From an uncultured Candidatus Saccharibacteria bacterium (GTDB lineage: Bacteria; Patescibacteriota; Minisyncoccia; UBA6257; 2-01-FULL-56-20): a DNA stretch of 33,433 nucleotides. Shown here piece by piece: positions 3 to 33,433 of this stretch. The stretch lies in NCBI GenBank assembly GCA_964563735.1, contig CAZLXS010000002.1:8005-41437 (forward strand), in the 5' to 3' direction. The translations under genes were made by a program, and so were the position numbers. Under the pieces are notes generated by a model. The model had not been told where the DNA came from, searched no databases, and was given only the letters and a program-made list of their open reading frames with translations. Numbering within the stretch: the first letter of the stretch is position 1; each line of letters starts with the position of its first letter.

Positions 3-1418
3 GAGTTGGGCTTGAAAATTGATTATGTGAGCGTGTTCTCCTCCGAAGGAGGATCTGCCTTCGGCGGAGAAGGTAATTTCAATGTGCCTAGTGATAGGGA
101 GTCTGAGGAAATTTGGCGGGGACTCGGTGTAAGTGAGGTTCGCAAATTTGGACGGGCGGATAATTTTTGGGGACCCACTGGAGTAGAGGGACCGTGTGGG
201 CCAACAACGGAGATTTATGTGGACGGAGTGGAGATCTGGAATTTAGTTTTTAATGAATATTTTTTGAGTCGAGACGGGAAATTGGAACCTCTACCTCAAA
301 AAGGGATTGATACGGGAATGGGTTTTGAAAGATTGGTTTCGAAGGTGCAGGGAGTAAAAAATATTTTTGAAACTGATTTGTTTATACCAATTATTGATTT
401 AATTCCATCTACTAATTTAAAAACGAAGAGGATTTTTGCGGATCATTTTCGCTCCGCGATTTTTTTGGTAGCAGATGGAGTTTTACCCTCGAATCAGGGG
501 CAGGGCTATATTCTGCGAAGAATTTTGCGGAGAGTGATTAGGTTTTCTAAATTAGAAAATATTAATTTTGATTTTTATAAAGAAGTAGTAGAAAAAATAA
601 TTGATTTATACGGAGATTTTTATCCTGAACTAAAGAATAGAAAGACAGCTATTTTTGAAGTTTTTGAATCCGAAAAAGATAAATTTTTAAAAGTTTTGGA
701 AACTGGCGTCAAAGAATTTAATCGATACATTGAGAAGGGCGATTTAAGTGTGGATGAAGTTTTTAATTTATACCAGAGTTACGGTTTTCCATTTGAATTG
801 ACCGAAGAGTTGGCAAAAGAAAAGGGCATAACAGTTGATATGCAGGCGATTAACGAAAAAAGAAAAATTCACCAAGAAACTTCAAGAGCTGGACTAGAGA
901 AAAAATTTGGTGGACACGGATTAATTTTGGACACGGGGGAGTTAAAAGCGGGGAGCGAGGAGGAGCTAAAAAAAGTTTTAGCACTGCACACAGCTACGCA
1001 TTTACTCCAACGGGCGCTTCGAGAGATTTTGGGACCAGAGGTTCGGCAGGCAGGATCGGATATTACATCAGAGCGAACCAGATTTGATTTTATGTTCCCA
1101 CGAAAACTAACAACCGAAGAATTAAAACAAATTGAGGATTTAGTGAATCAAAAAATTAAAGAAGATCTGCCAGTTAATTTTGTTGAACTGCCAAAAAATG
1201 AAGCTGAAAAAACAGGAGCTTTATTTTTCTTTCGCGAAAAATACCCAGAGATAGTGAAAGTTTATTTTGTGGGACGTTCGATTGAGGAAGCATGGAGTAA
1301 AGAGTTTTGTGGTGGACCCCATGTGAAGCATACTGGAGAAATTGGGCACTTTAAAATTGTAAAAGAGGAATCAGTAGCGGCTGGAACAAGGAGGATTAGA
1401 GGCGTGGTAGGGCTTTAA
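3..1418 (+). CDS. alaS: alanine--tRNA ligase, 5' end cut by the window edge; ends just after the editing domain
   Basis: Frame is open from the window start. Class II AlaRS core motifs NFWGPTG..GPCGPTTEIY and GIDTGMGFERL; editing-domain motifs HTATHLL, CGGPHV and GTRRI. Confidence 0.9.
   Translation, partial: ELGLKIDYVSVFSSEGGSAFGGEGNFNVPSDRESEEIWRGLGVSEVRKFGRADNFWGPTGVEGPCGPTTEIYVDGVEIWNLVFNEYFLSRDGKLEPLPQKGIDTGMGFERLVSKVQGVKNIFETDLFIPIIDLIPSTNLKTKRIFADHFRSAIFLVADGVLPSNQGQGYILRRILRRVIRFSKLENINFDFYKEVVEKIIDLYGDFYPELKNRKTAIFEVFESEKDKFLKVLETGVKEFNRYIEKGDLSVDEVFNLYQSYGFPFELTEELAKEKGITVDMQAINEKRKIHQETSRAGLEKKFGGHGLILDTGELKAGSEEELKKVLALHTATHLLQRALREILGPEVRQAGSDITSERTRFDFMFPRKLTTEELKQIEDLVNQKIKEDLPVNFVELPKNEAEKTGALFFFREKYPEIVKVYFVGRSIEEAWSKEFCGGPHVKHTGEIGHFKIVKEESVAAGTRRIRGVVGL
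40..65. repeat. GC-rich two-hairpin repeat, copy A (inside alaS)
   Basis: CCTCCGAAGGAGGATCTGCCTTCGGC matches 14497-14522 at 25 of 26 nt. Hairpins are CCTCC-GAA-GGAGG and CTGCC-TTC-GGCGG. Confidence 0.8.
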
Positions 1419-7693: not shown

Positions 7694-8845
7694 ATGAATC
7701 AATTATTAAAAATTGTTTTTACCGGCGGGGGGAGTGGGGGACACGTTTACCCACTTTTAGCAGTGGCCGAAGAGTTGAAAAAAATATCCAACGAGAGAGG
7801 AATTAATTTGGATTTACATTATGTGGGAATTTATGCAAATGATCACGATGTTTACTTTCAAGAGGGAGCGATTGCGGTCCATCCAATTTGGGCGGCAAAG
7901 TTTAGAAGATATTTTTCAATTTTAAATATTATTGATATTCCGATTTTTTTTATTTCAATTATTCAAGCTTTTTTTAAATTGTTTTGGTTGATGCCGGATG
8001 TAGTTTTTTCGAAGGGTGGACCGGGAGCTTATCCAGTTGTTTTGGCGGCTTGGTTTTATCGAATTCCAATTTTTATTCATGAATCGGATGCTGTTCCTGG
8101 TTTAACCAACTTGCTTTCGAGAAGATTTGCTACGAGAATAGCAGTTAGCTTTGAAATAGCGGCTCGTTATTTTGATCCGAATAAAACTGCTGTAACTGGA
8201 AATCCGGTGAGAAAATCTTTAATTCAGAATATGATGCCTAGTAATATCGCGAAAGAAGAATTAGGTTTTAATGGAGAGGAACCTTTGCTCTTGGTTTTGG
8301 GTGGTTCTCAAGGAGCAAGACGGATTAATGATTTTATTTTGGTTAATTTGGAACAGCTGGTTGGAGAGACTCAAATTTTGCACCAAACTGGAATTGCTAA
8401 TTTTATTGATGTGAAAAATTTATCGCGAGCGGCGCTTATTGATATGCCGATTCAAACGGAATTACAACATCGTTATGAGGCGGTTTCTTATTTCGAGCAA
8501 AACTTAGCAACGGCTTTGTCGGCAGCAGATTTAGTAGTAGCGAGAGCTGGTAGTGGAACAATTTTTGAATTAGCTGCTTTTAAGAAGCCGGTTATTTTAA
8601 TCCCACTTGCTGAAGCAGCTGGAGATCATCAAAGAATCAACGCCTATGAATTCGCTAAATTGGGCGGAGGGGTGGTGATTGAGGAGAGTAATCTATTTCC
8701 TGGAATTTTTATTAATCAAATTAAAGAAATTTTGGGGAACTTAATGAAGATCCAGAAAATGCAAGAAGCATCTTATAAATTTTATAAACCGGAGGCGGTT
8801 TCTATGATTGCGGAAGAGATAGTTGGAATAAGTGTGAATGACTAA
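7694..8845 (+). CDS. murG: UDP-GlcNAc:lipid I N-acetylglucosamine transferase
   Basis: KIVFTGGGSGGHVYP glycine loop, HESDAVPG, GGSQGA and AGDHQRINA. The ATG at 7694 is preferred over the track start at 7655. Confidence 0.85.
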   Translation: MNQLLKIVFTGGGSGGHVYPLLAVAEELKKISNERGINLDLHYVGIYANDHDVYFQEGAIAVHPIWAAKFRRYFSILNIIDIPIFFISIIQAFFKLFWLMPDVVFSKGGPGAYPVVLAAWFYRIPIFIHESDAVPGLTNLLSRRFATRIAVSFEIAARYFDPNKTAVTGNPVRKSLIQNMMPSNIAKEELGFNGEEPLLLVLGGSQGARRINDFILVNLEQLVGETQILHQTGIANFIDVKNLSRAALIDMPIQTELQHRYEAVSYFEQNLATALSAADLVVARAGSGTIFELAAFKKPVILIPLAEAAGDHQRINAYEFAKLGGGVVIEESNLFPGIFINQIKEILGNLMKIQKMQEASYKFYKPEAVSMIAEEIVGISVND

Positions 8846-8914
8846 TTAAGAATTTTTAATTTCTAAATATTTTTAAAATTAATTATTGGGATTTGATTAG
8901 AAATTAGTAATTAC
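8834..8914. repeat. AT-rich stop-codon-abutting hairpin repeat, copy X1
   Basis: Its reverse complement matches 15308-15411 and 14397-14441. Internal inverted arms are TAATTTCTAA (8857-8866) and TTAGAAATTA (8897-8906). Confidence 0.8.
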
Positions 8915-8965
8915 AAATTTGTCATTTTAATCAAGCGGTGGAGGTTGGAAGGATTGATTTTTAAA

Positions 8966-14382: not shown

Positions 14383-14449
14383 GAATTTCTAATGTCTAAT
14401 TACTAATTTCTAACCAAATCCCAATAACTAATTTTAAAAATTTAAAATT
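14380..14449. repeat. AT-rich stop-codon-abutting repeat, copy X2
   Basis: TAAGAATTTCTAA starts at the stop codon. 14397-14441 matches the reverse complement of X1 with 2 mismatches. Confidence 0.75.
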
Positions 14450-14496
14450 GTTGAGATGGTTCTAGATATTGGATCCCTTCGATCGTTTTAATTTTT

Positions 14497-14522
14497 CCTC
14501 CGAAGGAGGATCTGCCTCCGGC
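14497..14522. repeat. GC-rich two-hairpin repeat, copy B
   Basis: CCTCCGAAGGAGGATCTGCCTCCGGC in AT-rich spacer between convergent genes. Confidence 0.8.
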
Positions 14523-14653
14523 ATAATAACTTCTGAATTTTTAATTCAAAAACATCCGATACTCGCCTCATTTAGAACACTTAGAACATCTCACATCCAA
14601 CTTCTTAAAAGAATTTTATACCCTAAACCCTAGTGGCTATACCCTATCTTTAC

Positions 14654-15211: not shown

Positions 15212-15242
15212 GAATTAGCCAATAGCCAATTCCCCTGGAGGA

Positions 15243-15307
15243 GCCTGCCTGTCCCTGCCTACCGGCAGGCAGGCGGTAGGCAGGGATCCGCCTCAGGCGG
15301 AAATCCC
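15243..15307. repeat. GC-rich palindrome (family 2) fused to a family-1 second hairpin, copy D
   Basis: CCTGCCTACCG-GCAGGCAGG-CGGTAGGCAGG (15254-15284), then CCGCC-TCA-GGCGG (15288-15300). Lies between convergent rpmA and rplI. Confidence 0.8.
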
Positions 15308-15411
15308 TAATTACTGATTTCTAATCTCTCGACAAAGCTCGGGACAAGTGAAACTCCAATAATTAATTTTAAAAATATTTAGAAACTAAAAATTCTTAGT
15401 TAGTCATTCAC
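15308..15411. repeat. AT-rich stop-codon-abutting repeat, copy X3, with a 24-nt internal insertion
   Basis: Matches the reverse complement of 8834-8914. The extra 24 nt TCTCGACAAAGCTCGGGACAAGTG lie at 15327-15350. The repeat overlaps the rplI stop codon. Confidence 0.8.
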
Positions 15412-15857
15412 GCTTCTTTCTCTACTCTAATCTTTAGGGTTGCGGAGACTCCTTTTTTAAAATGAACTTCGATTTCGTGTTCGCCGAAGGTTCTAATGGG
15501 GCGCTCTAGTTTTATCTCGATTTTAGTGCTATCTAATAATTTATTTTTTTGGAGAGCTTTTTGGATCTGATCTTTGGAAACAGAGCCAAAGGGATGATTT
15601 TTGTCGTCGGCTTTTAACTTAAAAATCAGCGGAGCTTTTTTTAAATTAAGAGCAACCGCTTTTAAATGCTCTAAAAAATCTTGTTCTTCTTTTTTGGTGG
15701 TTTGGAGAATTAGGTTTATTTTTTTAACCGAAATTTCATCGGCTGGAACGGCTAATTTTTTGGGGAAAAGCATATTCCTAGCATAACCATCAGAGACTTC
15801 CTTGAGATCAAATTTTTTTCCTAATTTTGGAATATCTTGATTCAAAATAACCTTCAT
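15408..15857 (-). CDS. rplI: 50S ribosomal protein L9
   Basis: MKVILNQDIPKLGKKFDLKEVSDGYARNMLFPKKLAVPA. 149 aa. Confidence 0.9.
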   Translation of the reverse strand: MKVILNQDIPKLGKKFDLKEVSDGYARNMLFPKKLAVPADEISVKKINLILQTTKKEEQDFLEHLKAVALNLKKAPLIFKLKADDKNHPFGSVSKDQIQKALQKNKLLDSTKIEIKLERPIRTFGEHEIEVHFKKGVSATLKIRVEKEA

Positions 15858-18806: not shown

Positions 18807-20888
18807 CTAGAGTTCTTTCTCAATATCCCAAACTTCTTTGCCAATATAAGCAGTAACCGTTTCTAAGTCTTTTAAGAGTTGTTCTTCCCTTAGCTTTTCT
18901 TCGGTGGCCAATTCTTTGGTAGCTTTCATTCTACGAACTAAACTCAATTCGGCTTCGATATCGCGACGAAGAACAACAAAACCTCTTCGGACTGATTCTT
19001 CGGCTTCACGAACTTCTTTTAAGATTTTACGCTTTTTGGTTTTTTGGCCAATTAGGTGGTAGAGAATAAAAATTATTAGGATGAGAAGAATAAGGCCACC
19101 AACACCCAAGATGACTAAGTAGAGCTTCTCGAAACTAACCCTACTTTCTCCGATTTGGATGGCGGTTTTGGATATTTCTAATTCATGTTTAGAGCTAGGT
19201 GGACTTAATTCTTCGCCCTGTTTTAATTGGGTCCAAATTTCGTACTTACCAGCTTCTAGGAATTTGGGAGCAGAGTAGAACCAAGCACCCTTGGAATCGG
19301 TCTTGATGCTCTGACTTTGAGCGGTGCCGGTTTCAATGTTTTGAATGTAAATAATTACTTCGGCTTCTGGTACATTAGAAAAACCTCCAATATAAAGGAT
19401 TTCATCGTTGGAGATGTTCTTGGGGAACAAGCTAACGATGGGCGGTTCAACCCGAAGAGGATTGGATGTTTCGGTCTGAGCTGAGGTATTTTTTATATTG
19501 CCATAGAACAAACTCCCCAAGATAAGACCAAGGATAATAATTTTGATCAGATTGTCTGATTTGTAATTTTTTTGTTTTTCGCGCAAGAGCTCAACTTTAT
19601 TGATTAGATTTGGATGTTTTAGGGGTCCAGCTTGGAGCAACTCTTCGATCTGGCGGTGCCAGCCCCAAACTTTTTTACCTAGATAGCCGAGAAGAGCAAT
19701 AATGAGAAGAAGGATAACCCAAACGATAGGCCAATCTATGGTGAAATTGCCTTTGATTCTTACGCCTTGGCCATTAATAATTTCTAAAGTCTTATTGGTG
19801 ATAGTTAATTTTTTAGAATTTTCAAAATAATTCCCAGCTTCGTCATAGGCTCTCGTAATAATTTCGTATTTGCCTAATTCAAATTTTTGAGTATAGGGCG
19901 AGGTGGCCTCGATGAAGAATGGGGTTAAGTTTTCCGTATCCTTATTGTTTGTAAGAGAAATGATTTTTATCTCGTAGTGATTAATTCCAGATGATTTGTC
20001 AGTAGTAATGAAGTTTAAAATTGGATATTGATTAATAGTTCGATCACTGGGAGAAATTTCGGTTTCAAATTCGGCTGGTGGAGTGTTATCTATTTTTATA
20101 GCATAGCTAGTGACTCCTCCCCAAGCTCCTTCGCGCAGAGATTTAATATGGAAATAATAAATTCCATCAGCTAGATCGTTGTAGGTAATAGAAGTTTTTA
20201 ATCCCTCGGAGATGTCGTCTGGATCGTCAATTGGCGAATTGTTTAAGACATAACTAAACCCAGTGGTGGCGGGAATGCCATCCCAGCGTAAAACAACCGA
20301 TTGATTCCTATACCATTTTTCTTGATCCGGATTAGTGGGAGAGACAACAACTGGGCCAGCTGGCGGAGGCAGGATAAGGTTATAAACTCCACCAGTTCGT
20401 TGACCCAAGATATCAGTCCCCTGCCCGTCGTTTAGAAGGACCCTAGAAGAATCCAAAACTTTTATAATGGCTGTTCCAGTATCTTTAACTCGGAAGGTGA
20501 CCGTAGAGATGACCCCTGATTCGGTATTAATACCGGGGGTTGGAATGGCGCCCTGAAATTTAAGCGTTCCTTCAGAATTAGAGAAACTGGGTTGATTAAC
20601 CCAGATCTGAATAAGAGATTTACCGGCTGTCGGATTAACTACTTGTATCTTGTCGGCTGGAAAACTTAAGTTGGCTTCGATTGCATTAACCGAACGTCCA
20701 CCGGTATTCACGTAAATCGAAACTGTAAAGGTGCTACCCACTGTGTAGGTTCCATCTGCACGACCAAGAAAAATAGAGGCCTGCCCACTCCCCGCTCCAC
20801 TAGTTTGATGAAAATTAAAAAATACAAAAAACAGAGCTAGAAAAACGCTCAAAAAGATTGAGTGCGGCGGAAATAGATTACGCCTCAT
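18807..20888 (-). CDS. polytopic surface protein: cohesin-like module, Ig/FN3-like domains, three further TM helices, cytoplasmic coiled-coil tail
   Basis: Cohesin-like GSTFTVSIYVNTGGRSVNAIEANLSFPADKIQVV (about 20394-20795). PDQEKWYRN...GIYYFHIK module. TM helices at about aa 386-404, 447-463 and 589-612. Charged heptad tail at aa 613-693. Confidence 0.6.
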   Translation of the reverse strand: MRRNLFPPHSIFLSVFLALFFVFFNFHQTSGAGSGQASIFLGRADGTYTVGSTFTVSIYVNTGGRSVNAIEANLSFPADKIQVVNPTAGKSLIQIWVNQPSFSNSEGTLKFQGAIPTPGINTESGVISTVTFRVKDTGTAIIKVLDSSRVLLNDGQGTDILGQRTGGVYNLILPPPAGPVVVSPTNPDQEKWYRNQSVVLRWDGIPATTGFSYVLNNSPIDDPDDISEGLKTSITYNDLADGIYYFHIKSLREGAWGGVTSYAIKIDNTPPAEFETEISPSDRTINQYPILNFITTDKSSGINHYEIKIISLTNNKDTENLTPFFIEATSPYTQKFELGKYEIITRAYDEAGNYFENSKKLTITNKTLEIINGQGVRIKGNFTIDWPIVWVILLLIIALLGYLGKKVWGWHRQIEELLQAGPLKHPNLINKVELLREKQKNYKSDNLIKIIILGLILGSLFYGNIKNTSAQTETSNPLRVEPPIVSLFPKNISNDEILYIGGFSNVPEAEVIIYIQNIETGTAQSQSIKTDSKGAWFYSAPKFLEAGKYEIWTQLKQGEELSPPSSKHELEISKTAIQIGESRVSFEKLYLVILGVGGLILLILIIFILYHLIGQKTKKRKILKEVREAEESVRRGFVVLRRDIEAELSLVRRMKATKELATEEKLREEQLLKDLETVTAYIGKEVWDIEKEL

Positions 20889-24741: not shown

Positions 24742-27700
24742 TTAAGGACTATAAGATCCAGAAAAAGTAATGGTTCCCGAGTAGGTTCCGGTTGGATTTC
24801 CGGCTGGAACTTCAACACCCCAGAAAATATCACTGCTACTTCGGTCATTAAATGTAGGCGCGTAAAAAACTGATGAGGTAGCTAGATAATTTTCTCCACC
24901 ATCTGTATACGCTCCCCCACTGACATAAGAATATCCATTGTAAGTGACTAAAGCTCGATCAAGAAAGTTTGAATTAGGAAAAATAGGAACTGGGGTACTG
25001 GTGGCCCAGTTAAAACTTGTCCCAGATATAGTTGAGAGATAAGCATAAGTAGAGGTTGATCCAGGAGCTCCTAAGCTATAAAAAGAATCTTTAGAATTCG
25101 AAAGAATATTGAAGGTGGTATATGCGGATGGAAGAGGCGTGCTGGCAGTAACCCAACTTCCCAGAGTCCCATCCGAATTAATGGGGGCGTAAATTATAGA
25201 CGAAGTGACAGCAGACGGCGCTCTCCCACCAAACACATAAATATTCCCGTTTCTTTCGTAGGAAGTATGATCCTTTCGAGCTACGGGTAGAGCGGTGGTT
25301 GTGGACCAAGTACCAATCAACCCACTAGAGTCAATTGGAGCATAGAGAACTGTGGAGGTGGCAGTACTCCCAACAGGAGTTCCTCCGATCGCATAGATAT
25401 AGCCGTTTTTTGCGACGATACTATGATTACCTAGGGCATTAGGTAAATCATCTAAAAGGGAAGCGTTCCAGAAACCAATGGTTCCGTTGGAATTTATATC
25501 TGTAACATAAACTCCTGCGGTGTGGGTTGGCGAAGTGGAGGTACTTCCTCCGACTAAATATAACCTCCCATTGTACACAGTAAGAACCGGACGAATTAAT
25601 GCGGCTGGAAGCTTGGTAGTATTACTCCAAGATGAAATGGCTCCGGTAGAACTATTTATAGATCCATAGAGAATTGTTGATGTAACACCACCTGAGACTC
25701 CAGTGTCACCTCCAAAAATATATAGATAGTTATTATATGCCAAAGAAGAATGTTGAGCATTTATATAAGGCAAAACCGTAGTAGTAGACCAAGAACCAAG
25801 ATGGTTGAGGATTTTTTGATAGGCCGGCAAAGAAATTCCACTAATTGTGCTATTGGTTCCACTTAGTTGTTGTTCTGTTCCGCCAAAGATAAAAGTTGAA
25901 GTGGCAAAGTGTTGCGAGGAGGTGACGATAGAGTTGGCGTTAAAATTAAGAGCGGTACCTCGAACCAGTGCAGACGACGTTGCATTGCCGGCATTTTTGA
26001 TTGGAGCTATTTGATTTTTCTGACCAGTATTGGAATTAGAATTTACTTGGCCATAGTTTATGCTACTAGTTCCAACTTCTATAGCAACGAGAGTATTTAA
26101 CTCAACTCCACTGGCAGTACTACTGGTTTGATTACTACTCGAATCTCTAGCTTCAACTTTGGCGATCCAATTTTCGCCGGAAAAAGACGAGCTGGTGTCG
26201 GTTGGTTGAGCAAAATAATAAATATCTACAGTGGCGGTTGCATTAGCAGAAGCTCCACCAGCACAGTTATTGGTAGTAGTGGTAACTCGATAGCAGTTTA
26301 AGGGATCTTCTGAGCAATCAAAACTAAGCCCAGAGCGATAGACGGTGGTAGTGACATTGCCACTCGTAAAAACATCGGAGCAACCACTGCCATCGGTTAA
26401 TGTAAAATTAACCACGATAGTAGTGGTAGTGTTTGGGGTTAGGGTGATAACATTTCCATGATTTAACGAAGTGGCAGAAAGATTGGGATTTGTGTCTGTG
26501 GCTGATGTGTAGATAGATGGGTAGGTACAGACACTATTATCAACACACGGGGTGGCTGGCCAGCTGGTTTGTTGACGATAGACTGGAGAATCTTGACCTA
26601 CATCATACATCCTAAAAAAATAAATCTGGTTACTTTCGGTATTGTTAGCTTCAATGGAAAATTCTAGTTCAAGAATAGTGGTTGAGGCGTGATCCATATT
26701 AGCGTTCGCTGCGGCATTATTACTTGTGGTCCACCAACCACTTACCGTTGAGCTACTAAGCAGAGTTCCTCCGGTTATTAATTCTCCATCATCGCAAGTA
26801 GCAGCTCCAGTATTACAGTCAAAATATCGCCATATAGTTGAGCTGCCGACATTACCAACATCCGTCCAAATTGTTGACGATGCATCAGGGGTAGTACTGG
26901 AAGTGAATTGCAATTTTTTTCTGGAATCGGTTTGACTGTTTCCCCCTAGCTCTGCCATATTAAAACGTAATCTAACCTGACCAGCTACGCCACTTATAGT
27001 AGCCGAAGTGTTTTCTGCTGCTAGGGCTGGAGAAGGACTTCCCGCAGTAGAAGTTCCACTGTATAGTCGCCAGTTTAAAGACCATGGGGAATATGGCTTG
27101 TAGGCAAAATCAAATCCATTATTTTCCCAGATAACAGTATTGCTATCCCCAGAACTAGCGACTCGAGTACCCAATTCGGCAGATAAACCACTAGTAGTGA
27201 ATGCCCCACCATCCCACCTATGAGTTCTTAGATCATTATCACTATCTACTCCAACCCGCATCATTTCATCATCATTAGGCGATGGAATTAATTTTCTATT
27301 TGCTCCGTCATCGGTCCAGCCACTTGCTATATCAGCAACGGCTGAAAATCCACCGCCTGGAGTCCAGGTTACAAAATCAGCTGCATCGGCTGCGGCATCA
27401 TCGTTGTAAATAATTAGAGCAGTGGAGGTACTATTGCCAGTCCCAAATCTTTCCCAAGCCACAGTTACGCCTACTGCGGCTTTGTCTTCTAATGATGTAT
27501 CTCCTGTCCCTAAATTCCAGGCTGCAGTGCCGGTGGCCTTCCAGATCGCTGGCCAGCCCATCGTAGCTGTTGAGCTGGAAGTTAAACCAACAGCTACTCT
27601 GTCACTTTGTGGATCTCCATCCATAACAACCCAGATACCACGACTAGCTGTGATTGCAGGCATAAGAGTGCTGGTTGTGTCCCAAACCCCGTTTACTAAT

Positions 27701-30700
27701 TTTTTATACGAGAAGGGGGTAGTAGAAGTGGCTGAGCTTGAAGCAAAAACTACGACAGCGTTTCCTGATAGAGTTTCCCAAGCGCCATCAAATGGACGCC
27801 CACTAGCAGAAAAAGCATTCACCGTGATTGTTGTTGTAGAGATAACACTAGAACCATCCCAAACTCCGGCATAGATATCCTTAGCATTACTAATGTTCAA
27901 AATTAATATCTCATTAGAACGATTGTTGGTTAGATGTTCTCCCTTTGGCACCAAACGAACCCAACCAGGAGAAATAAGAGAAGAACAGCTTCCCGCAACG
28001 AAGCAAAAATTAAAACTATTTTCTGTGCTCGATACATTTCCATCCCAAGTTATATAATAAAGACTTTCTGCTACTGCCCCTGTAGCTCTCGCTACATCTT
28101 TTGTGTATACAATAAATGCTCGACCGGATAATTGTTCATAGGCGATGTCAAATGATTGATTACATGACCCAAATACGGTATTACAGACCTGAGTATAGGT
28201 TGTAGAAGCAATACTTATGATACTAGACCAACTAGTTCCGTTGTATCTTGTAATATCGAGTCGTCCATTGTCTTTAAGATTTCCAACTAAATATTCATTT
28301 CTGGTTGGAGAAGCGCGAACAACAACGTGTTGTACCTGAGATGTTTCTGCTGTCGTATCTATTGAGGTAGCTTCTGCGCTCCATGTGCTTGTTGTTGTTA
28401 GGAAGCGAACGTTAACGTTGTCAACATCAGTAGTATCACTATAGGCGAGCAAACTTCCAGTGTTGACCACAGCATCCGAGGCGATTTGCCATTGCCTTGA
28501 TTCTTGCCAGACTTCAATGTCGGGATCATTATTTTTTAATTTTAATGCACCGAGCTTAAATAATTCCGGACTGATGTCGGGGCCTTTAAATTCATAAACC
28601 AAATCCCTGCCTTCTCCTGACTTTAAATCTAGATTCCACTGGAGCACCTTGGTTTCCGAATTATCCTTCTCCCCCCTTATATTAAAATCATTGGAATCAG
28701 TGATTTCAAAAAGTGCTGGGACAAATTCTTCTACTATGCCGTCAAAATCTTCGTTGGCTTTTATTTTTATCGTGACAGTATATTTGTCGGGGGGGTAGGT
28801 ACGCGTCGGAGCGCTTCGTTCTACATCAAAACGCGGTGGATTTTCTACGGAGAATTGTTCCTCAATGGAACGAGGGCCGTTCTTAGTTTGCGCATTGATG
28901 TTTAAACGATAGATTCCGATTTCGGATAGATTGGAAATGGAAGTTTTGTAATCTGGAATTGGACTTCCCCCACTATTCGGACCACAGGAAGCTGATCTTT
29001 CTATGGAGCCATCATTAGTATTTCGAAAAATTTTTAAACCTGCAGGAGTTGTAATGGTTAGATTTATTTCTGCATCGCAAATAGTGTGACCTCCGTCATC
29101 TAGAACTCCAAAATGAAGCTCCGCTTCATCGCCAAGACTAAAAATGGATTTATTACTATTTACCGCTAAAACTCCCCAAGAAAAATCCGATTCGGTGGTA
29201 TAAACCACACCGTTCCGTAAAATCCAAATTTTCATTTTATATTTTCCTGGGCGAAAAAATCTTTCTGGCTCAGCAACACTAATCCGTAGTCGATTGTTGA
29301 CAGTAAGAATAGTGGGGTGGAAATTAGTAGATTTATTTTTGGGATCAAAAATTTGAACGGCAATGGGGTTGTCGGCGGTAAGAAGTTCGCCCTCTCCTGT
29401 TTGAGCGGTAGCTTTTTTAACTTTAAAAAAATCGAGTAATCCCCGACCATCGCGCACTAATTGCCATAATTGTTTTTGAACCGAAGGACGCGCCGATACC
29501 GGCGCGTTTAGAATTTCAGGATTTTCTGGATGATTATCGCCTCCTTGATCTAATTGATTATTCGAATCCTCTTCGGGAATTGGAGCTTCGATTGATGGTG
29601 GAGCTGGAAGAGCGTCTAGATCTAAATCAAAACTTGGGTTTTCGTTTGATCCATAGGTTCCGCCTTCTCGGACCGGTGAGAGATCTTGATTTTCCGGAAG
29701 AGTGATGACCTGAACTCCGTTTGGAAGAATAACATTGGTAATGACCTTTCCGGTTTCGCTTGGTTTTTTGTTTTCTGGATTAATGATGGATGGAATCTCG
29801 TAATTAACTTCTATGAACATTCCATCTAGATAAACTTTAGGTAGTTTCTCCAGAGTGGTGTCGATTCCGATAAGACTAATTTGAATTTTTGATAACTCCG
29901 CCCAACTTAATTTTGGCAGAGGAAGAGTGAGATTCTGAAAATTAAGAGGATTAACCTTGCCCACGGAGAGCCAATTTGAACCATCTAGACTATAACGAAC
30001 TTCAAGAAAATTATTATCTGGCGCCGGTGGAATATATTCTGGAAGTGGAATCTGATTCTCTACAACCGGTTCGATTGAGGTAGCTGATTGATCACCTTGA
30101 TCTTCTTTTAGCTCTACTGGTTCGAGTGGAGCGATAATAGACGGTATCACAACTGGATCACTTGATTGGTCTAGTTCGTTTGACTCGGGTTTTTCTCCTG
30201 GTTTTTCCTCTGGAACTTCGGGATTTTGTGGAGCTATGGAGCTTGGTTCTTCTTTTTGGGTGATGACCGGCGTATCACTACTTGGCTCTGATTCTTCGGC
30301 GAGTGCATGAGATACGAGAGGAATTCTCCAGAGCGCTGATTTTTCCGAATCTTCGCTTACAGGCTCTATTTTTTCATCAACTTTATTTTCATTACTTTCA
30401 ATAACTTCAAGCGATTCATTAAACAATGTTTCTGCTTCTACTAGATTTTCAGCTCGCCAAACCAAGGTTAAGCCGGCGCTCACAACGTTGCCTTGTCCAC
30501 TAAAATTATCTGGCAAAAATTGACCGCAAAAAATTTGGTCAGTCTTGTTTTTCAAAACAGCAGAATTATCTTCGGTTAAGGCAATCTCGGAGTTTTTTAT
30601 ACTTTCGGATTCGCCCTGAGCTTTCTCTGGGTTTTCCCAACTACCTAAACAGGTTTGAGGACTAAAATCAGCAATTTCGGCGTGAGTGAAAACTTTATTG

Positions 30701-30885
30701 GCTAAGATAATAATAATTAATCCGACGAGAACACTGCATCCGATAAAGGCGGCTTTTTTGTAAGGTAAAAATTTATTTTTCCTTAAATCAACGACGTGAG
30801 AATCGTTTTCTCCTAACAAGAATTTTGAGATTTTTTTCAAATCAAAAAAGCCCGTTTTTTTTCTTTTGTCTAGAAAAGACGGCAT
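24742..30885 (-). CDS. giant (2047 aa) N-terminally anchored surface protein with two propeller-like regions
   Basis: Uninterrupted ORF. TM at aa 45-64, Pro/Glu-rich linkers, and a Trp-punctuated roughly 7-repeat region at aa 799-1266. Six Kelch-like blades (YLYIFGG, RLYLVGG, YIYAIGG, NIYVFGG, SFYSLG, YSYVSGG) at aa 1690-2011. Confidence 0.75.
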   Translation of the reverse strand: MPSFLDKRKKTGFFDLKKISKFLLGENDSHVVDLRKNKFLPYKKAAFIGCSVLVGLIIIILANKVFTHAEIADFSPQTCLGSWENPEKAQGESESIKNSEIALTEDNSAVLKNKTDQIFCGQFLPDNFSGQGNVVSAGLTLVWRAENLVEAETLFNESLEVIESNENKVDEKIEPVSEDSEKSALWRIPLVSHALAEESEPSSDTPVITQKEEPSSIAPQNPEVPEEKPGEKPESNELDQSSDPVVIPSIIAPLEPVELKEDQGDQSATSIEPVVENQIPLPEYIPPAPDNNFLEVRYSLDGSNWLSVGKVNPLNFQNLTLPLPKLSWAELSKIQISLIGIDTTLEKLPKVYLDGMFIEVNYEIPSIINPENKKPSETGKVITNVILPNGVQVITLPENQDLSPVREGGTYGSNENPSFDLDLDALPAPPSIEAPIPEEDSNNQLDQGGDNHPENPEILNAPVSARPSVQKQLWQLVRDGRGLLDFFKVKKATAQTGEGELLTADNPIAVQIFDPKNKSTNFHPTILTVNNRLRISVAEPERFFRPGKYKMKIWILRNGVVYTTESDFSWGVLAVNSNKSIFSLGDEAELHFGVLDDGGHTICDAEINLTITTPAGLKIFRNTNDGSIERSASCGPNSGGSPIPDYKTSISNLSEIGIYRLNINAQTKNGPRSIEEQFSVENPPRFDVERSAPTRTYPPDKYTVTIKIKANEDFDGIVEEFVPALFEITDSNDFNIRGEKDNSETKVLQWNLDLKSGEGRDLVYEFKGPDISPELFKLGALKLKNNDPDIEVWQESRQWQIASDAVVNTGSLLAYSDTTDVDNVNVRFLTTTSTWSAEATSIDTTAETSQVQHVVVRASPTRNEYLVGNLKDNGRLDITRYNGTSWSSIISIASTTYTQVCNTVFGSCNQSFDIAYEQLSGRAFIVYTKDVARATGAVAESLYYITWDGNVSSTENSFNFCFVAGSCSSLISPGWVRLVPKGEHLTNNRSNEILILNISNAKDIYAGVWDGSSVISTTTITVNAFSASGRPFDGAWETLSGNAVVVFASSSATSTTPFSYKKLVNGVWDTTSTLMPAITASRGIWVVMDGDPQSDRVAVGLTSSSTATMGWPAIWKATGTAAWNLGTGDTSLEDKAAVGVTVAWERFGTGNSTSTALIIYNDDAAADAADFVTWTPGGGFSAVADIASGWTDDGANRKLIPSPNDDEMMRVGVDSDNDLRTHRWDGGAFTTSGLSAELGTRVASSGDSNTVIWENNGFDFAYKPYSPWSLNWRLYSGTSTAGSPSPALAAENTSATISGVAGQVRLRFNMAELGGNSQTDSRKKLQFTSSTTPDASSTIWTDVGNVGSSTIWRYFDCNTGAATCDDGELITGGTLLSSSTVSGWWTTSNNAAANANMDHASTTILELEFSIEANNTESNQIYFFRMYDVGQDSPVYRQQTSWPATPCVDNSVCTYPSIYTSATDTNPNLSATSLNHGNVITLTPNTTTTIVVNFTLTDGSGCSDVFTSGNVTTTVYRSGLSFDCSEDPLNCYRVTTTTNNCAGGASANATATVDIYYFAQPTDTSSSFSGENWIAKVEARDSSSNQTSSTASGVELNTLVAIEVGTSSINYGQVNSNSNTGQKNQIAPIKNAGNATSSALVRGTALNFNANSIVTSSQHFATSTFIFGGTEQQLSGTNSTISGISLPAYQKILNHLGSWSTTTVLPYINAQHSSLAYNNYLYIFGGDTGVSGGVTSTILYGSINSSTGAISSWSNTTKLPAALIRPVLTVYNGRLYLVGGSTSTSPTHTAGVYVTDINSNGTIGFWNASLLDDLPNALGNHSIVAKNGYIYAIGGTPVGSTATSTVLYAPIDSSGLIGTWSTTTALPVARKDHTSYERNGNIYVFGGRAPSAVTSSIIYAPINSDGTLGSWVTASTPLPSAYTTFNILSNSKDSFYSLGAPGSTSTYAYLSTISGTSFNWATSTPVPIFPNSNFLDRALVTYNGYSYVSGGAYTDGGENYLATSSVFYAPTFNDRSSSDIFWGVEVPAGNPTGTYSGTITFSGSYSP

Positions 30886-33261: not shown

Positions 33262-33335
33262 ATAGGGTCGCCTGCCTGCCCTGCCTACCGGCAGGCAGGC
33301 GGTAGGCAGGTCTAACGGTAGGACAGCGGCCTTTT
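33260..33335 (+). pseudogene. tRNA-like 5' fragment interrupted by a 40-nt GC palindrome
   Basis: TGATAGGGTCG[40-nt insert]TCTAACGGTAGGACAGCGGCCTTT parallels TGGGGGATCGTCTAATGGTAGGACATCGCCCTTT of the adjacent tRNA-Gln. No T arm or 3' acceptor strand follows. Confidence 0.5.
33270..33310. repeat. GC-rich palindrome (family 2), copy E
   Basis: GCCTGCCTGCCCTGCCTACCGGCAGGCAGGCGGTAGGCAGG matches 15243-15284 except for one indel. 11-bp stem with a 9-nt loop. Confidence 0.85.
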
Positions 33336-33363
33336 CCTTCGGAGAAGGATCTGCCTCTGGCAG
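33336..33363. repeat. GC-rich two-hairpin repeat, copy C
   Basis: CCTTC-GGA-GAAGG, ATC, then CTGCC-TCT-GGCAG. Stem changes relative to copies A and B are compensatory. Confidence 0.75.
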
Positions 33364-33378
33364 TAGAAGCATCTTATT

Positions 33379-33397
33379 TTTATTATTTACATTGCTG
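33379..33397 (+). repeat. 19-nt direct repeat, copy 2
   Basis: Identical to 33243-33261. Confidence 0.85.
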
Positions 33398-33433
33398 GGG
33401 GATCGTCTAATGGTAGGACATCGCCCTTTGAAG
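33396..33433 (+). tRNA. tRNA-Gln (anticodon UUG), 5' part only, cut by the window end
   Basis: Hand fold: acceptor TGGGGGA, U8, D arm GTCT/AATGGTA/GGAC with G18-G19, anticodon stem TCGCC, loop CTTTGAA (U33, TTG, A37). U1 and the overall 5' end resemble E. coli tRNA-Gln. Confidence 0.75.

What the first reader, a model, noticed from the sequence alone, without database searches (positions are those of the whole stretch)
39..71. GC-rich two-hairpin repeat apparently inserted in frame in alaS
The 26-mer CCTCCGAAGGAGGATCTGCCTTCGGC at 40-65 matches the intergenic copy at 14497-14522 at 25 of 26 nt. It is related to 33336-33363. The second hairpin alone recurs at 15288-15300. Stem differences between copies are compensatory: CCTCC/GGAGG vs CCTTC/GAAGG, and CTGCC/GGCAG vs CCGCC/GGCGG. 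That argues for selection on structure. In alaS the element encodes SSEGGSAFGGE, sitting between ..YVSVF and GNFNVPSDRESEEIW. In AlaRS sequences I remember, those two segments are contiguous (..VF.GD.NxPxDxE..IW). The 33 nt are about 60% GC in an AT-rich gene. This pattern matches the Rickettsia palindromic elements, which insert in frame into ORFs. Hairpin 1 pairs an SD-like GGAGG with an anti-SD-like CCTCC.
Basis: partly seen in the sequence, partly recalled or inferred. Interest (0 to 1): 0.65.

Follow-up and report, generated by a model that had tools for sequence, protein, structure and literature searches.

The report
Tiny double-hairpin insert inside alaS
A 30-base DNA element made of two small hairpins has been inserted in frame into the alanyl-tRNA synthetase gene of an ultra-small (Patescibacteria/CPR) bacterium. 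The same element is scattered through essential genes, intergenic DNA and broken tRNA genes across the whole CPR superphylum, apparently undescribed.

Summary

- **The insertion.** Window 39-68 (30 bp, not 33) is an exact in-frame insertion in alaS. A 93%-identical AlaRS gene lacks it (GTGTTT|GAGGGA). A 99.7%-identical one keeps a 12-bp remnant.
- **The unit.** It is two abutting 15-nt hairpins, T-CCNCC-NNN-GGN'GG-A, twice.
- **Copies in the window.** There are four: 39-68; 14496-14525; 15231-15243 plus 15285-15301 (split by another nested palindrome); and 33335-33364, in the anticodon loop of a dead tRNA-Gln.
- **Distribution.** A row-capped scan of species-representative genomes found the motif in 102 loci of 51 Patescibacteria assemblies, from Saccharibacteria to Kaiserbacteria. 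Elsewhere only chance 20-mer matches lacking hairpin 2 appeared.
- **Coding context.** 68 of 97 full copies lie in long ORFs (GyrA/B, UvrD, DnaK, LigA, RNR). 56 of those are in the one phase per strand that reads Ser/Gly/Ala, against 38% expected.
- **Structure.** Stems covary (0/500 shuffles).
- **Targeting.** Insertion is 3' of TTN with no target duplication. The same alaS site was hit in at least 4 lineages, and anticodon position 35^36 in seven broken tRNA copies.
- **Effect on AlaRS.** It adds SSEGGSAFGG to a low-confidence loop.

Best reading: a REP/RPE-like non-autonomous hairpin element whose mobilising enzyme is unknown.

The parts
39..68 (+). Copy 1 of the 30-bp double-hairpin element (TCCTCC-GAA-GGAGGA | TCTGCC-TTC-GGCGGA). 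It is inserted in frame in alaS between Phe125 (TTC) and Glu (GAA) and encodes SSEGGSAFGG.
   Evidence: The site is empty in L007 and a 12-nt remnant sits there in L006. Folding. The family consensus gives boundaries T...A.
3..1418 (+). alaS, the 3' 472 codons of a short 584-aa CPR-type alanyl-tRNA synthetase; this is the host gene.
   Evidence: Pfam tRNA-synt_2c + tRNA_SAD; full gene in L008; PDB AlaRS, E 1e-65; AlphaFold model.
14496..14525 (+). Copy 2 (TCCTCC-GAA-GGAGGA | TCTGCC-TCC-GGCATA). It is intergenic, 114 nt downstream of a PD-(D/E)XK-like gene and upstream of rpmA.
   Evidence: Identical in the independent assembly L132.
15231..15243 (+). Copy 4, left 13 nt (TCCCCTGGAGGAG; 2 mismatches in hairpin 1). 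It lies 20 nt downstream of the rpmA stop.
   Evidence: read against the family consensus.
15244..15284 (.). Nested double palindrome of a second family: CCTGCCTGT[CCCTGCCTACCGGCAGGCAGG]CGGTAGGCAGG. It interrupts copy 4 between its positions 13 and 14.
   Evidence: (D10, I3).
15285..15301 (+). Copy 4, right 17 nt (GA | TCCGCC-TCA-GGCGGA).
33335..33364 (+). Copy 3 (TCCTTC-GGA-GAAGGA | TCTGCC-TCT-GGCAGT), both stems with compensated changes. It is inserted after C-T-T-T of the anticodon loop (position 35^36) of a decayed tRNA-Gln copy.
33262..33334 (+). Decayed 5' part of a tRNA-Gln gene (acceptor, D arm, anticodon stem). It also carries a 40-nt nested CCTGCC palindrome at 33271-33310, where conspecific contigs have only 20 nt.
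33396..33433 (+). 5' part of the intact tRNA-Gln(TTG), cut by the window end. Its upstream 18 nt duplicate the sequence upstream of the broken copy.
   Evidence: ARAGORN and Rfam find the complete gene in L004/L002.

Best explanation
Window 39-68 is one copy of a dispersed, non-autonomous 30-bp DNA element specific to Patescibacteria (CPR).

**The unit.** It is a head-to-tail dimer of 15-nt hairpin modules, T-CC-N-CC / 3-nt loop / GG-N'-GG-A. The canonical sequence is TCCTCC-GRA-GGAGGA | TCCGCC-TNN-GGCGGA.

**How it inserts (shown).** It enters DNA as an exact 30-bp block immediately 3' of TTN, with an A/G-rich right flank, and makes no target-site duplication.

**Why it survives in genes (shown in outline, inferred in cause).** It is 30 nt long, free of stop codons in all six frames, and quasi-palindromic. 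In one phase on either strand it reads Ser/Gly/Ala (SSxGG-SAxGG or SAxGG-SSxGG). Insertions in genes therefore survive mainly when they fall in that phase and in a surface loop. In the gene-dense CPR genomes most surviving copies are inside housekeeping genes.

**Effect in alaS (inferred).** It adds a flexible 10-residue loop between a beta-strand (residues 121-125) and a helix (145-153) of the aminoacylation domain and is probably neutral.

**Mechanism (inferred).** The element moves, or is copied, as single-stranded hairpin DNA handled by a trans-acting enzyme not encoded by the element. The closest precedents are HUH/Y1 transposases of the IS200/IS605 and RAYT type. The enzyme is unidentified.
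For: **Exact 30-bp presence/absence without duplication.**
- alaS in the window/L008 against L007.
- alaS in L128 against L131.
- The broken against the intact tRNA-Ser copy in L047.

**Family size and range.** 97 full copies were found in 102 CPR loci from 51 assemblies. Position 1 is T in 97/97 and position 30 is A in 96/97. The 17 non-CPR matches all lack hairpin 2, as expected for chance 20-mer matches.

**Target.** Flank position -2 is T in 89/97 copies, -3 is T in 66/97, and the right flank is A-rich.

**Recurrent hits.**
- The VF^EG site of alaS in 4 separate clades, each with empty nearest relatives and different element subtypes or orientation.
- Anticodon position 35^36 in seven broken tRNA copies.

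**Coding bias.** 68/97 copies lie in long ORFs. 56/68 are in phase 0, against 38% expected from target preference alone (p = 7e-14). Hosts include RNR, GyrA, GyrB, UvrD, DnaK, LigA and Mur ligases.

**Structure.** The two-hairpin model has 97% of cells paired and 6/12 pairs with double changes, reached by 0/500 shuffles. The single long-hairpin model is no better than shuffles.

**Lineage-specific subfamily.** All three intact window copies share T18, which is C in 94/97 of the family.

**Decay and instability.** There is a 12-nt remnant allele (L006), several alleles in one sample, and mismatched stems in L128/L129.

**Loop location.**
Against: - **No mobilising enzyme found.** There is none in the window. 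No family recurs beside 41 non-genic copies; two GIY-YIG ORFs appear, both in tRNA-Glu loci.
- **Conservation is unusual for selfish DNA.** Near-identity of the consensus across lineages as distant as Saccharibacteria and Kaiserbacteria could instead point to a function. Four orthologous pairs keep 28-30/30 element bases while their flanks are 61-81% identical, although that sample was selected on the motif.
- **No transposition event observed directly.** Presence/absence could in principle reflect precise loss.
- **Whole-genome copy number unknown.** It could not be obtained for the window's organism.
Confidence: 0.75

Rival explanations
1. The 30-mer is a functional cis-acting signal, for example a DNA-uptake sequence for the CPR competence machinery, a binding site for a conserved nucleoid, replication or repair protein, or an RNA structure. 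Selection or molecular drive would hold it constant, and its Gly/Ser-coding design would let it reside inside genes of very compact genomes. Insertion would then be only the way it arrives.
For: - The consensus is nearly invariant over the whole superphylum.
- Orthologous copies are conserved above their flanks, though in a biased sample.
- Stems covary, so a folded single strand matters.
- Both orientations occur, and many hosts are replication or repair genes, as reported for USS/DUS and for intragenic REPs (PMC3733652).
- Saccharibacteria are naturally competent (PMC10633639).
Against: - Copies appear as clean 30-bp indels, not by substitution.
- Density is only about 1 per 8-11 kb (window; extra copies in sampled loci).
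- Copies decay, with mismatches, deletions and interruption by other palindromes.
- Insertions destroy tRNA gene copies.
- No uptake sequence is reported for Patescibacteria.
Confidence: 0.15
2. The block is filler DNA captured during break repair or template switching from a conserved source sequence, such as a piece of a conserved RNA gene. It would then not be a mobile element with its own recognition system.
For: - The insertions are short and exact, without target duplication.
- Conservation would follow from a conserved source.
Against: - No Rfam family matches the element, including rRNA, RNase P, tmRNA and SRP RNA.
- The target (TTN^) and the boundaries (T...A) are defined.
- The same sites are used recurrently.
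- Lineage-specific subfamilies with compensated stems fit copying from element copies, not from one gene.
Confidence: 0.05
3. The extra residues are an adaptive, lineage-specific AlaRS loop or a local low-complexity expansion unrelated to the other copies. Alternatively, they are an assembly or contamination artefact such as a synthetic Gly-Ser linker.
For: - The peptide resembles engineered GS linkers, and GGATCC is a BamHI site (sequence itself).
- Literature hits for the peptide are all synthetic linkers.
Against: - Nucleotide identity with intergenic and tRNA-embedded copies, and with copies coded on the opposite strand.
- Presence in independent assemblies from many studies and environments, and only in CPR.
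- Alleles are seen in several public runs.
Confidence: 0.02

Closest known systems
Rickettsia palindromic elements (RPE)
   Same: Palindromic repeats inserted in frame into unrelated housekeeping genes. The encoded peptide is retained and presumed to sit where the fold tolerates it. Copies also occur in non-coding DNA (PMC10969869, PMC3733652).
   Different: - RPE-1-type elements are about 150 bp and restricted to Rickettsia; this unit is 30 bp and spans a whole superphylum.
- Its structure is two side-by-side 6-bp hairpins rather than one long palindrome.
- No sequence relationship was tested.
REP elements (GTAG/CGTC-tagged REPs, BIMEs, REPINs) and their RAYT transposases
   Same: GC-rich palindromes of 20-40 bp, present in tens to hundreds of copies. 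Intragenic copies are known, notably in DNA synthesis and repair genes. Some families (CGTC) lack a known transposase (PMC3733652).
   Different: - There is no GTAG or CGTC tag; the flanks are TTN and A-rich.
- The unit is a head-to-tail dimer of two different hairpins, not a single hairpin or a head-to-head doublet.
- About 70% of copies are intragenic rather than mostly extragenic.
- No RAYT was seen, though the test was limited.
IS200/IS605-family single-strand transposition and derived palindrome-associated elements (my own knowledge of the family)
   Same: No target duplication, hairpins at both ends, and insertion 3' of a short fixed target sequence. This is the only well-understood mechanism that fits the anatomy.
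   Different: - Those elements are hundreds of bp or encode TnpA.
- No Y1 transposase was identified here.
- The target TTN is shorter than the known 4-5-nt targets.
MITEs (Correia/NEMIS, RUP, ERIC and others)
   Same: Non-autonomous, dispersed elements, sometimes fused in frame to ORFs (PMC10969869).
   Different: MITEs are 70-300 bp with 15-30-bp terminal inverted repeats and target-site duplications (PMC3733652). This element has neither.
DNA uptake sequences (USS/DUS) of Pasteurellaceae and Neisseriaceae (my own knowledge)
   Same: A short motif conserved across a large clade, present in both orientations, often inside genes in tolerated frames, and found in naturally competent bacteria.
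   Different: USS/DUS arise by substitution and occur about once per kb. Here there are clean 30-bp insertions at about 1 per 10 kb.
PARCELs, palindromic amphipathic repeat coding elements of Mollicutes (PMC2996958; title and abstract only)
   Same: Palindromic coding DNA that gives similar peptides from either strand and is spread among unrelated genes and organisms.
   Different: PARCELs are described as intragenic tandem repeats of surface proteins. They are not single 30-bp insertions in housekeeping enzymes.

Membership tests
Rickettsia palindromic elements (RPE) | Palindromic repeat inserted in frame in ORFs of unrelated functional genes | tested here: met
   alaS. 56 phase-0 copies in RNR, GyrA/B, UvrD, DnaK, LigA and others.
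Rickettsia palindromic elements (RPE) | Length about 100-150 bp, encoding a conserved peptide of tens of residues (PMC10969869) | tested here: not met
   The unit is exactly 30 bp, or 10 residues.
Rickettsia palindromic elements (RPE) | Sequence similarity to RPE consensus sequences; host genus Rickettsia | not tested
   No RPE sequences were at hand. All full copies are in Patescibacteria.
REP (GTAG/CGTC super-families) | 20-40-bp GC-rich palindrome in many copies | tested here: met
   30 bp. 4 copies in 33 kb of the window. At least 10 loci in one Kaiserbacteria assembly in a capped scan.
REP (GTAG/CGTC super-families) | Unpaired GTAG or CGTC tag at one end (PMC3733652) | tested here: not met
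   Flank profile: left ..T-T-[T/G/C], right A-rich. No GTAG or CGTC.
REP (GTAG/CGTC super-families) | Predominantly extragenic, downstream of ORFs | tested here: not met
   68 of 97 full copies lie inside long ORFs.
REP (GTAG/CGTC super-families) | RAYT (Y1 transposase) gene flanked by the repeats | tested here: inconclusive
   None in the window. None recurred among 76 ORFs next to non-genic copies. Only about 8-kb pieces of each genome were available.
MITE | Terminal inverted repeats of 15-30 bp and length 70-300 bp | tested here: not met
   30 bp in all, organised as two adjacent hairpins.
MITE | Target-site duplication | tested here: not met
   Three filled/empty comparisons show none.
IS200/IS605-type single-strand elements | No target duplication; insertion 3' of a fixed short sequence | tested here: met
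   TTN^ with position -2 T in 89/97. The empty sites already contain TTT/TTG.
IS200/IS605-type single-strand elements | Hairpins at both ends that are needed as folded single strands | tested here: met
   Two hairpins supported by covariation and folding. That they are needed for movement is inferred.
IS200/IS605-type single-strand elements | HUH/Y1 TnpA encoded in the genome; lagging-strand insertion bias | not testable with these tools
   Only fragments of the host genomes could be read, and replication strands are unknown.
DNA uptake sequences (USS/DUS) | Copies arise in place by substitution; density about 1 per kb; biased uptake | tested here: not met
   Clean 30-bp indels. Density about 1 per 8-11 kb. 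Uptake bias is not testable here.
CRISPR repeat | Regular arrays of repeats separated by unique spacers | tested here: not met
   Copies are solitary or irregularly spaced. Only sub-threshold Rfam CRISPR-DR scores (18 bits against a gathering score of 38).

The most novel reading that the evidence does not exclude
The 30-bp unit is a new kind of site-specific element moved, or at least recognised, by a conserved CPR housekeeping enzyme rather than by its own transposase. This would explain why one sequence persists across the whole superphylum.

Its natural target would be TTN in an exposed hairpin loop, with U34 tRNA anticodon loops as the best sites. Its length, stop-free sequence and Gly/Ser reading on both strands would be adaptations for living inside essential genes of genomes that have almost no intergenic space. 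It would then be a general source of loop insertions in CPR proteins, and possibly a cis-signal the cell uses.
Probability: 0.2. Interest if true: 0.85.

Novelty: new variant of a known kind. Interest (0 to 1): 0.7.

Why it matters
CPR/Patescibacteria make up a large share of bacterial diversity, have about 1-Mb genomes and are regarded as streamlined. A conserved 30-bp element was found at roughly 1 per 10 kb in the sampled stretches. It sits mostly inside essential genes (gyrase, DnaK, ligase, RNR, aminoacyl-tRNA synthetases), and this bears on several matters.

- **Protein alignments.** It explains a class of Gly/Ser-rich indels in CPR protein alignments. These can mislead phylogenies, structure prediction and annotation.
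- **Selection in tiny genomes.** It gives a natural experiment on which protein loops tolerate 10-residue insertions, and it shows frame-specific purifying selection on selfish DNA in very small genomes.
- **An unknown enzyme.** It points to an unidentified hairpin-recognising activity shared across the superphylum. Its target preference (TTN^) also matches U34 tRNA anticodon loops.
- **Strain typing.** Presence/absence alleles, such as those at alaS in wastewater populations, offer strain markers.
- **Testability.** Saccharibacteria can now be transformed, so mobility or function can be tested directly.

Tried and rejected
- **Known RNA family.** Rfam at gathering threshold on the whole window gave 0 hits. 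Permissive scans around copy 2 and the tRNA locus gave only sub-threshold noise and the tRNA itself. Rejected.
- **tRNA genes in the window.** ARAGORN finds none, because the intact tRNA-Gln is cut by the window end and the other copy is broken. This was resolved using L004.
- **Phage vector.** There were 0 matches in 2.9 M IMG/VR contigs.
- **Literature.** The exact sequence, the peptides, and co-mentions of CPR with REP, RPE, MITE or RAYT gave no relevant paper. Peptide hits are synthetic linkers.
- **Associated transposase.**
  - The window ORFs are ordinary housekeeping and cell-wall genes.
  - The 76 ORFs beside non-genic copies show no recurrent nuclease or recombinase except two small GIY-YIG genes, both tied to tRNA-Glu loci rather than to the element in general.
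- **Genome-wide count in the window's organism.** The metagenome scan for the window-type subfamily returned 60 loci. None came from this organism, about 20 were true family members from other CPR, and the rest were chance matches in GC-rich genes.
- **Single long hairpin or cruciform as the selected structure.** There is no covariation support, although it is the minimum-free-energy fold of the alaS copy.
- **Split or intron-containing tRNA.**
  - I considered that the tRNA fragments flanking tRNA-Gln form a functional split or intron-bearing tRNA.
  - I rejected this for the window because the acceptor halves do not pair and no 3' anticodon-stem strand exists.
  - They are best read as a decayed duplicate.
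- **Conservation of orthologous copies above their flanks.** Observed but not used as evidence of function, because the sample was selected on the motif and hot-spot reinsertion is demonstrated at alaS.
Full report
**What is in the window.** The window is a chromosomal stretch of a Patescibacteria (CPR) bacterium. Its AlaRS is most similar to proteins labelled Paceibacterota, Liptonbacteria or Parcubacteria. The same sequence occurs in wastewater and activated-sludge metagenomes. GC content is about 38%. The genes are ordinary: alaS, Mur ligases, RseP, FtsW, MurG, GluRS, L27, L9, Def, Fmt and large surface proteins. The motif CCTYCGRAGRAGGATCYGCC occurs three times (40, 14497, 33336) against 0 expected by chance. 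The repeat finder reports the same three copies. alaS (3..1418) reads straight through copy 1.

**The alaS insertion.** A search of 5.8 billion proteins gave three informative close relatives.

| Protein / locus | Identity to window AlaRS | Sequence at the site |
|---|---|---|
| P0001 / L008 | about 100% | VF-SSEGGSAFGG-EGNFNVP |
| P0002 / L006 | 99.7% | VF-SSGG-EGNFNVP |
| P0003 / L007 | 93% | VF-EGDEQVP |

- At DNA level the empty site is GTGTTT|GAGGGAGAT.
- The filled site is GTGTTC[TCCTCCGAAGGAGGATCTGCCTTCGGCGGA]GAAGGTAAT.
- The insert is therefore exactly 30 bp (window 39-68, 10 codons) with no duplicated target. The Glu at 69-71 belongs to the gene.
- The L006 allele (TCCTCTGGCGGA) looks like an 18-bp internal deletion between CCTC repeats.
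- Contigs from public runs show a branch point at position 66, meaning several alleles coexist in one sample.
- A metatranscriptome contig carries yet another allele with a 21-nt CCTGCC-type hairpin at the same spot.

**Location in the protein.** Solved AlaRS structures align with a gap exactly here. An AlphaFold model built on 56 homologues (mean pLDDT 84) places residues 126-135 in a coil between strand 121-125 and helix 145-153, with pLDDT below 50 at 132-137.

- 102 loci, from 51 assemblies, are Patescibacteria: Saccharibacteria, Kaiser-, Harrison-, Lipton-, Jorgensen-, Nomura-, Doudna- and Uhrbacteria, Paceibacteria, Minisyncoccia, and unclassified MAGs.
- The 17 matches in other phyla all lack the second hairpin. 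My estimate from database size is about 17 chance hits.
- The 97 full copies define a 30-nt unit: T-CCTCC-GRA-GGAGG-A | T-CCGCC-TNN-GGCGG-A. Its first T is present in 97/97 copies and its last A in 96/97, although neither was part of the search pattern.
- It is a tandem pair of 15-nt hairpins, each with a 6-bp stem and a triloop. The whole 30-mer is a near-palindrome centred on GGA|TCC.

**Structural evidence.**
- Structure-blind and sequence-blind rescans of the fetched loci found variants with compensated stems: TCCACC/GGTGGA, CCCTCC/GGAGGG, CCCGCC/GGCGGG, TCTGCC/GGCAGA, and T+T and G+G dimers.
- On 56 distinct sequences the two-hairpin model has 97% of cells paired, 6 of 12 pairs with changes on both sides, and 22 such cells. 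No shuffle out of 500 reaches these values.
- The single long hairpin is indistinguishable from shuffles.
- The window's three intact copies share T18, which is C in 94/97 of the family. In copies 2 and 3 this is compensated by A28. In the alaS copy it is not, where A28 would turn Gly into Arg. They therefore form a lineage-specific subfamily.

**The fourth window copy.** It is degenerate in hairpin 1 and is split after its position 13 by a 41-nt nested palindrome of another family.

**Where copies sit.**
- 68 of 97 full copies lie in long open frames.
- 56 of these are in phase 0: 23 on the coding strand (SSxGGSAxGG) and 33 on the opposite strand (SAxGGSSxGG).
- A target model built from the non-genic copies predicts only 38% in phase 0 (binomial p = 7e-14). 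Frame-specific survival, not target choice alone, shapes the distribution.
- Host ORFs are bona fide conserved genes: class II RNR, GyrA (3), GyrB (2), UvrD (3), Mur ligases (3), DnaK (2), LigA (2), translational GTPases and SpoU methylases.

**Target and hot spots.** The flanks show T at -2 in 89/97 copies, T at -3 in 66/97, T/G/C at -1, and an A-rich right side. These bases pre-exist in the empty sites.

The alaS site is a hot spot. Among 120 AlaRS homologues, four separate clades carry a family member exactly after the Phe codon of YV(S/T)VF:
- the window clade;
- P0010;
- P0026 with P0083;
- P0006.

Their nearest relatives (77-93% identity) are empty. Their DNA shows different subtypes and, in L128, the opposite orientation.

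The same preference, TTT^GAAGG, is found in the tRNA-Gln anticodon loop. In the window, copy 3 follows C-T-T-T of a decayed tRNA-Gln 5' fragment that lies just upstream of the intact tRNA-Gln. The same layout occurs elsewhere:
- tRNA-Gln in L027 and L028;
- tRNA-Ser(TGA) in L047 and L075;
- tRNA-Glu in L067 and L035.

In every case the insertion is between anticodon nucleotides 35 and 36, and always in the broken copy next to an intact duplicate. In L047 the broken and intact copies differ by exactly the 30 nt. In L067 and L035 an 82-86-aa GIY-YIG gene lies between the broken and intact tRNA-Glu. This suggests the duplication comes from a separate cassette, with the element then occupying a harmless optimal target.

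**Mechanism.**

Shown:
- exact 30-bp unit;
- defined ends;
- TTN^ target;
- no target duplication;
- structure under selection;
- recurrent site use;
- frame-biased survival;
- decay and nested interruption.

Inferred:
- copying or movement as folded single-stranded DNA by a trans-acting enzyme.

The only well-understood precedent with these properties is HUH/Y1 single-strand transposition (IS200/IS605, RAYT-REP). This rests on my own knowledge plus PMC3733652. I found no such gene, but could read only fragments of the host genomes. I put about 0.35 on this enzyme class and about 0.9 on the statement that the alaS segment is an inserted copy of a dispersed element.

**Rivals.**
- **Functional cis-signal (uptake sequence, protein-binding site or RNA structure).** This remains possible because the consensus is so constant across phyla, and four orthologous pairs keep 28-30/30 bases with flanks at 61-81% identity (a biased sample). 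Against it stand the clean indels, the modest density, the visible decay and the destruction of tRNA copies.
- **Filler DNA from a conserved gene.** Unsupported.
- **Artefact or adaptive protein loop.** Excluded by independent assemblies and by the non-coding and opposite-strand copies.

**Comparison with known systems.**
- The behaviour matches RPEs and intragenic REPs: in-frame palindromes in housekeeping, often DNA-metabolism, genes (PMC3733652, PMC10969869).
- Membership fails for each family tested: RPE on length, REP on the GTAG/CGTC tag and extragenic bias, MITE on terminal inverted repeats and target duplication, USS/DUS on mode of origin and density.
- I found no description of this sequence or of such elements in CPR in the searchable library. 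That library omits most subscription journals.
- I therefore class it as a new variant of a known kind: a REP/RPE-like intragenic palindromic element.

**Limits.**
- Whole-genome copy number for the window's organism could not be obtained.
- RNA retention rests on one metatranscriptome contig that may contain DNA.

Noticed in passing
window 15244-15284 and 33271-33310; L002-L004, L093, L100, L104: A second family of tiny GC-rich palindromes, CCTGCCT-N6-AGGCAGG (20-21 nt). In the window both occurrences are 'Russian dolls': one copy sits inside the loop of another in opposite orientation. Conspecific contigs (flanking 735-aa protein identical) carry only the single 20-nt copy at the tRNA site, so this is a very recent indel. 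A 21-nt copy appears inside alaS at the same hot spot in a metatranscriptome contig.
   Followed up: partly
window 33262-33433; L004 740-1100; L027, L028, L047, L075, L067, L035: Broken 5' parts of tRNA-Gln, tRNA-Ser(TGA) or tRNA-Glu lie directly upstream of an intact copy of the same tRNA with duplicated upstream flank. In L004, L028 and L075 a 3' tRNA remnant follows. The 30-bp element always sits at anticodon 35^36 of the broken copy. In L028 and L075 the outer 5' and 3' remnants still have complementary acceptor strands.
   Followed up: partly
L067 7736-7993 (+); L035 1795-2040 (-): Small GIY-YIG nuclease genes (86 and 82 aa; Pfam E 1e-16 and 6e-13) lie between a broken tRNA-Glu 5' part and the intact tRNA-Glu in two unrelated CPR genomes. 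This looks like a homing-endonuclease-type cassette that targets and replaces tRNA-Glu.
   Followed up: partly
window 15328-15350; alaS of P0006 (L130) and P0037: A third short repeat, TCGACAA(A)GCTC(A/G)GGNCAGG. It is intergenic in the window and sits in frame in alaS of two other CPR lineages as PSTSSGQA, a few codons downstream of the 30-bp hot spot.
   Followed up: no
window 8827-8926, 14384-14441, 15351-15418: An AT-rich intergenic repeat of about 60-100 nt (TAATTTCTAA-rich; 88-91% complementary between copies). It flanks the rpmA region in inverted orientation relative to the copy downstream of murG.
   Followed up: no
L015, L049, L035, L038, L013, L126: Copies of the 30-bp element often cluster within 40-900 nt of each other, sometimes several in one gene. 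This suggests local hopping or self-generated targets.
   Followed up: no
window 24742-30885 and 30964-33171 (- strand): Very large secreted-type proteins: one of 2047 aa with Kelch/beta-propeller repeats, and one of 735 aa with reprolysin-like metalloprotease, Big_7 and dockerin domains. A cohesin-domain protein lies at 18807-20888. Together these resemble a cellulosome-like cohesin-dockerin surface system in a CPR genome.
   Followed up: no
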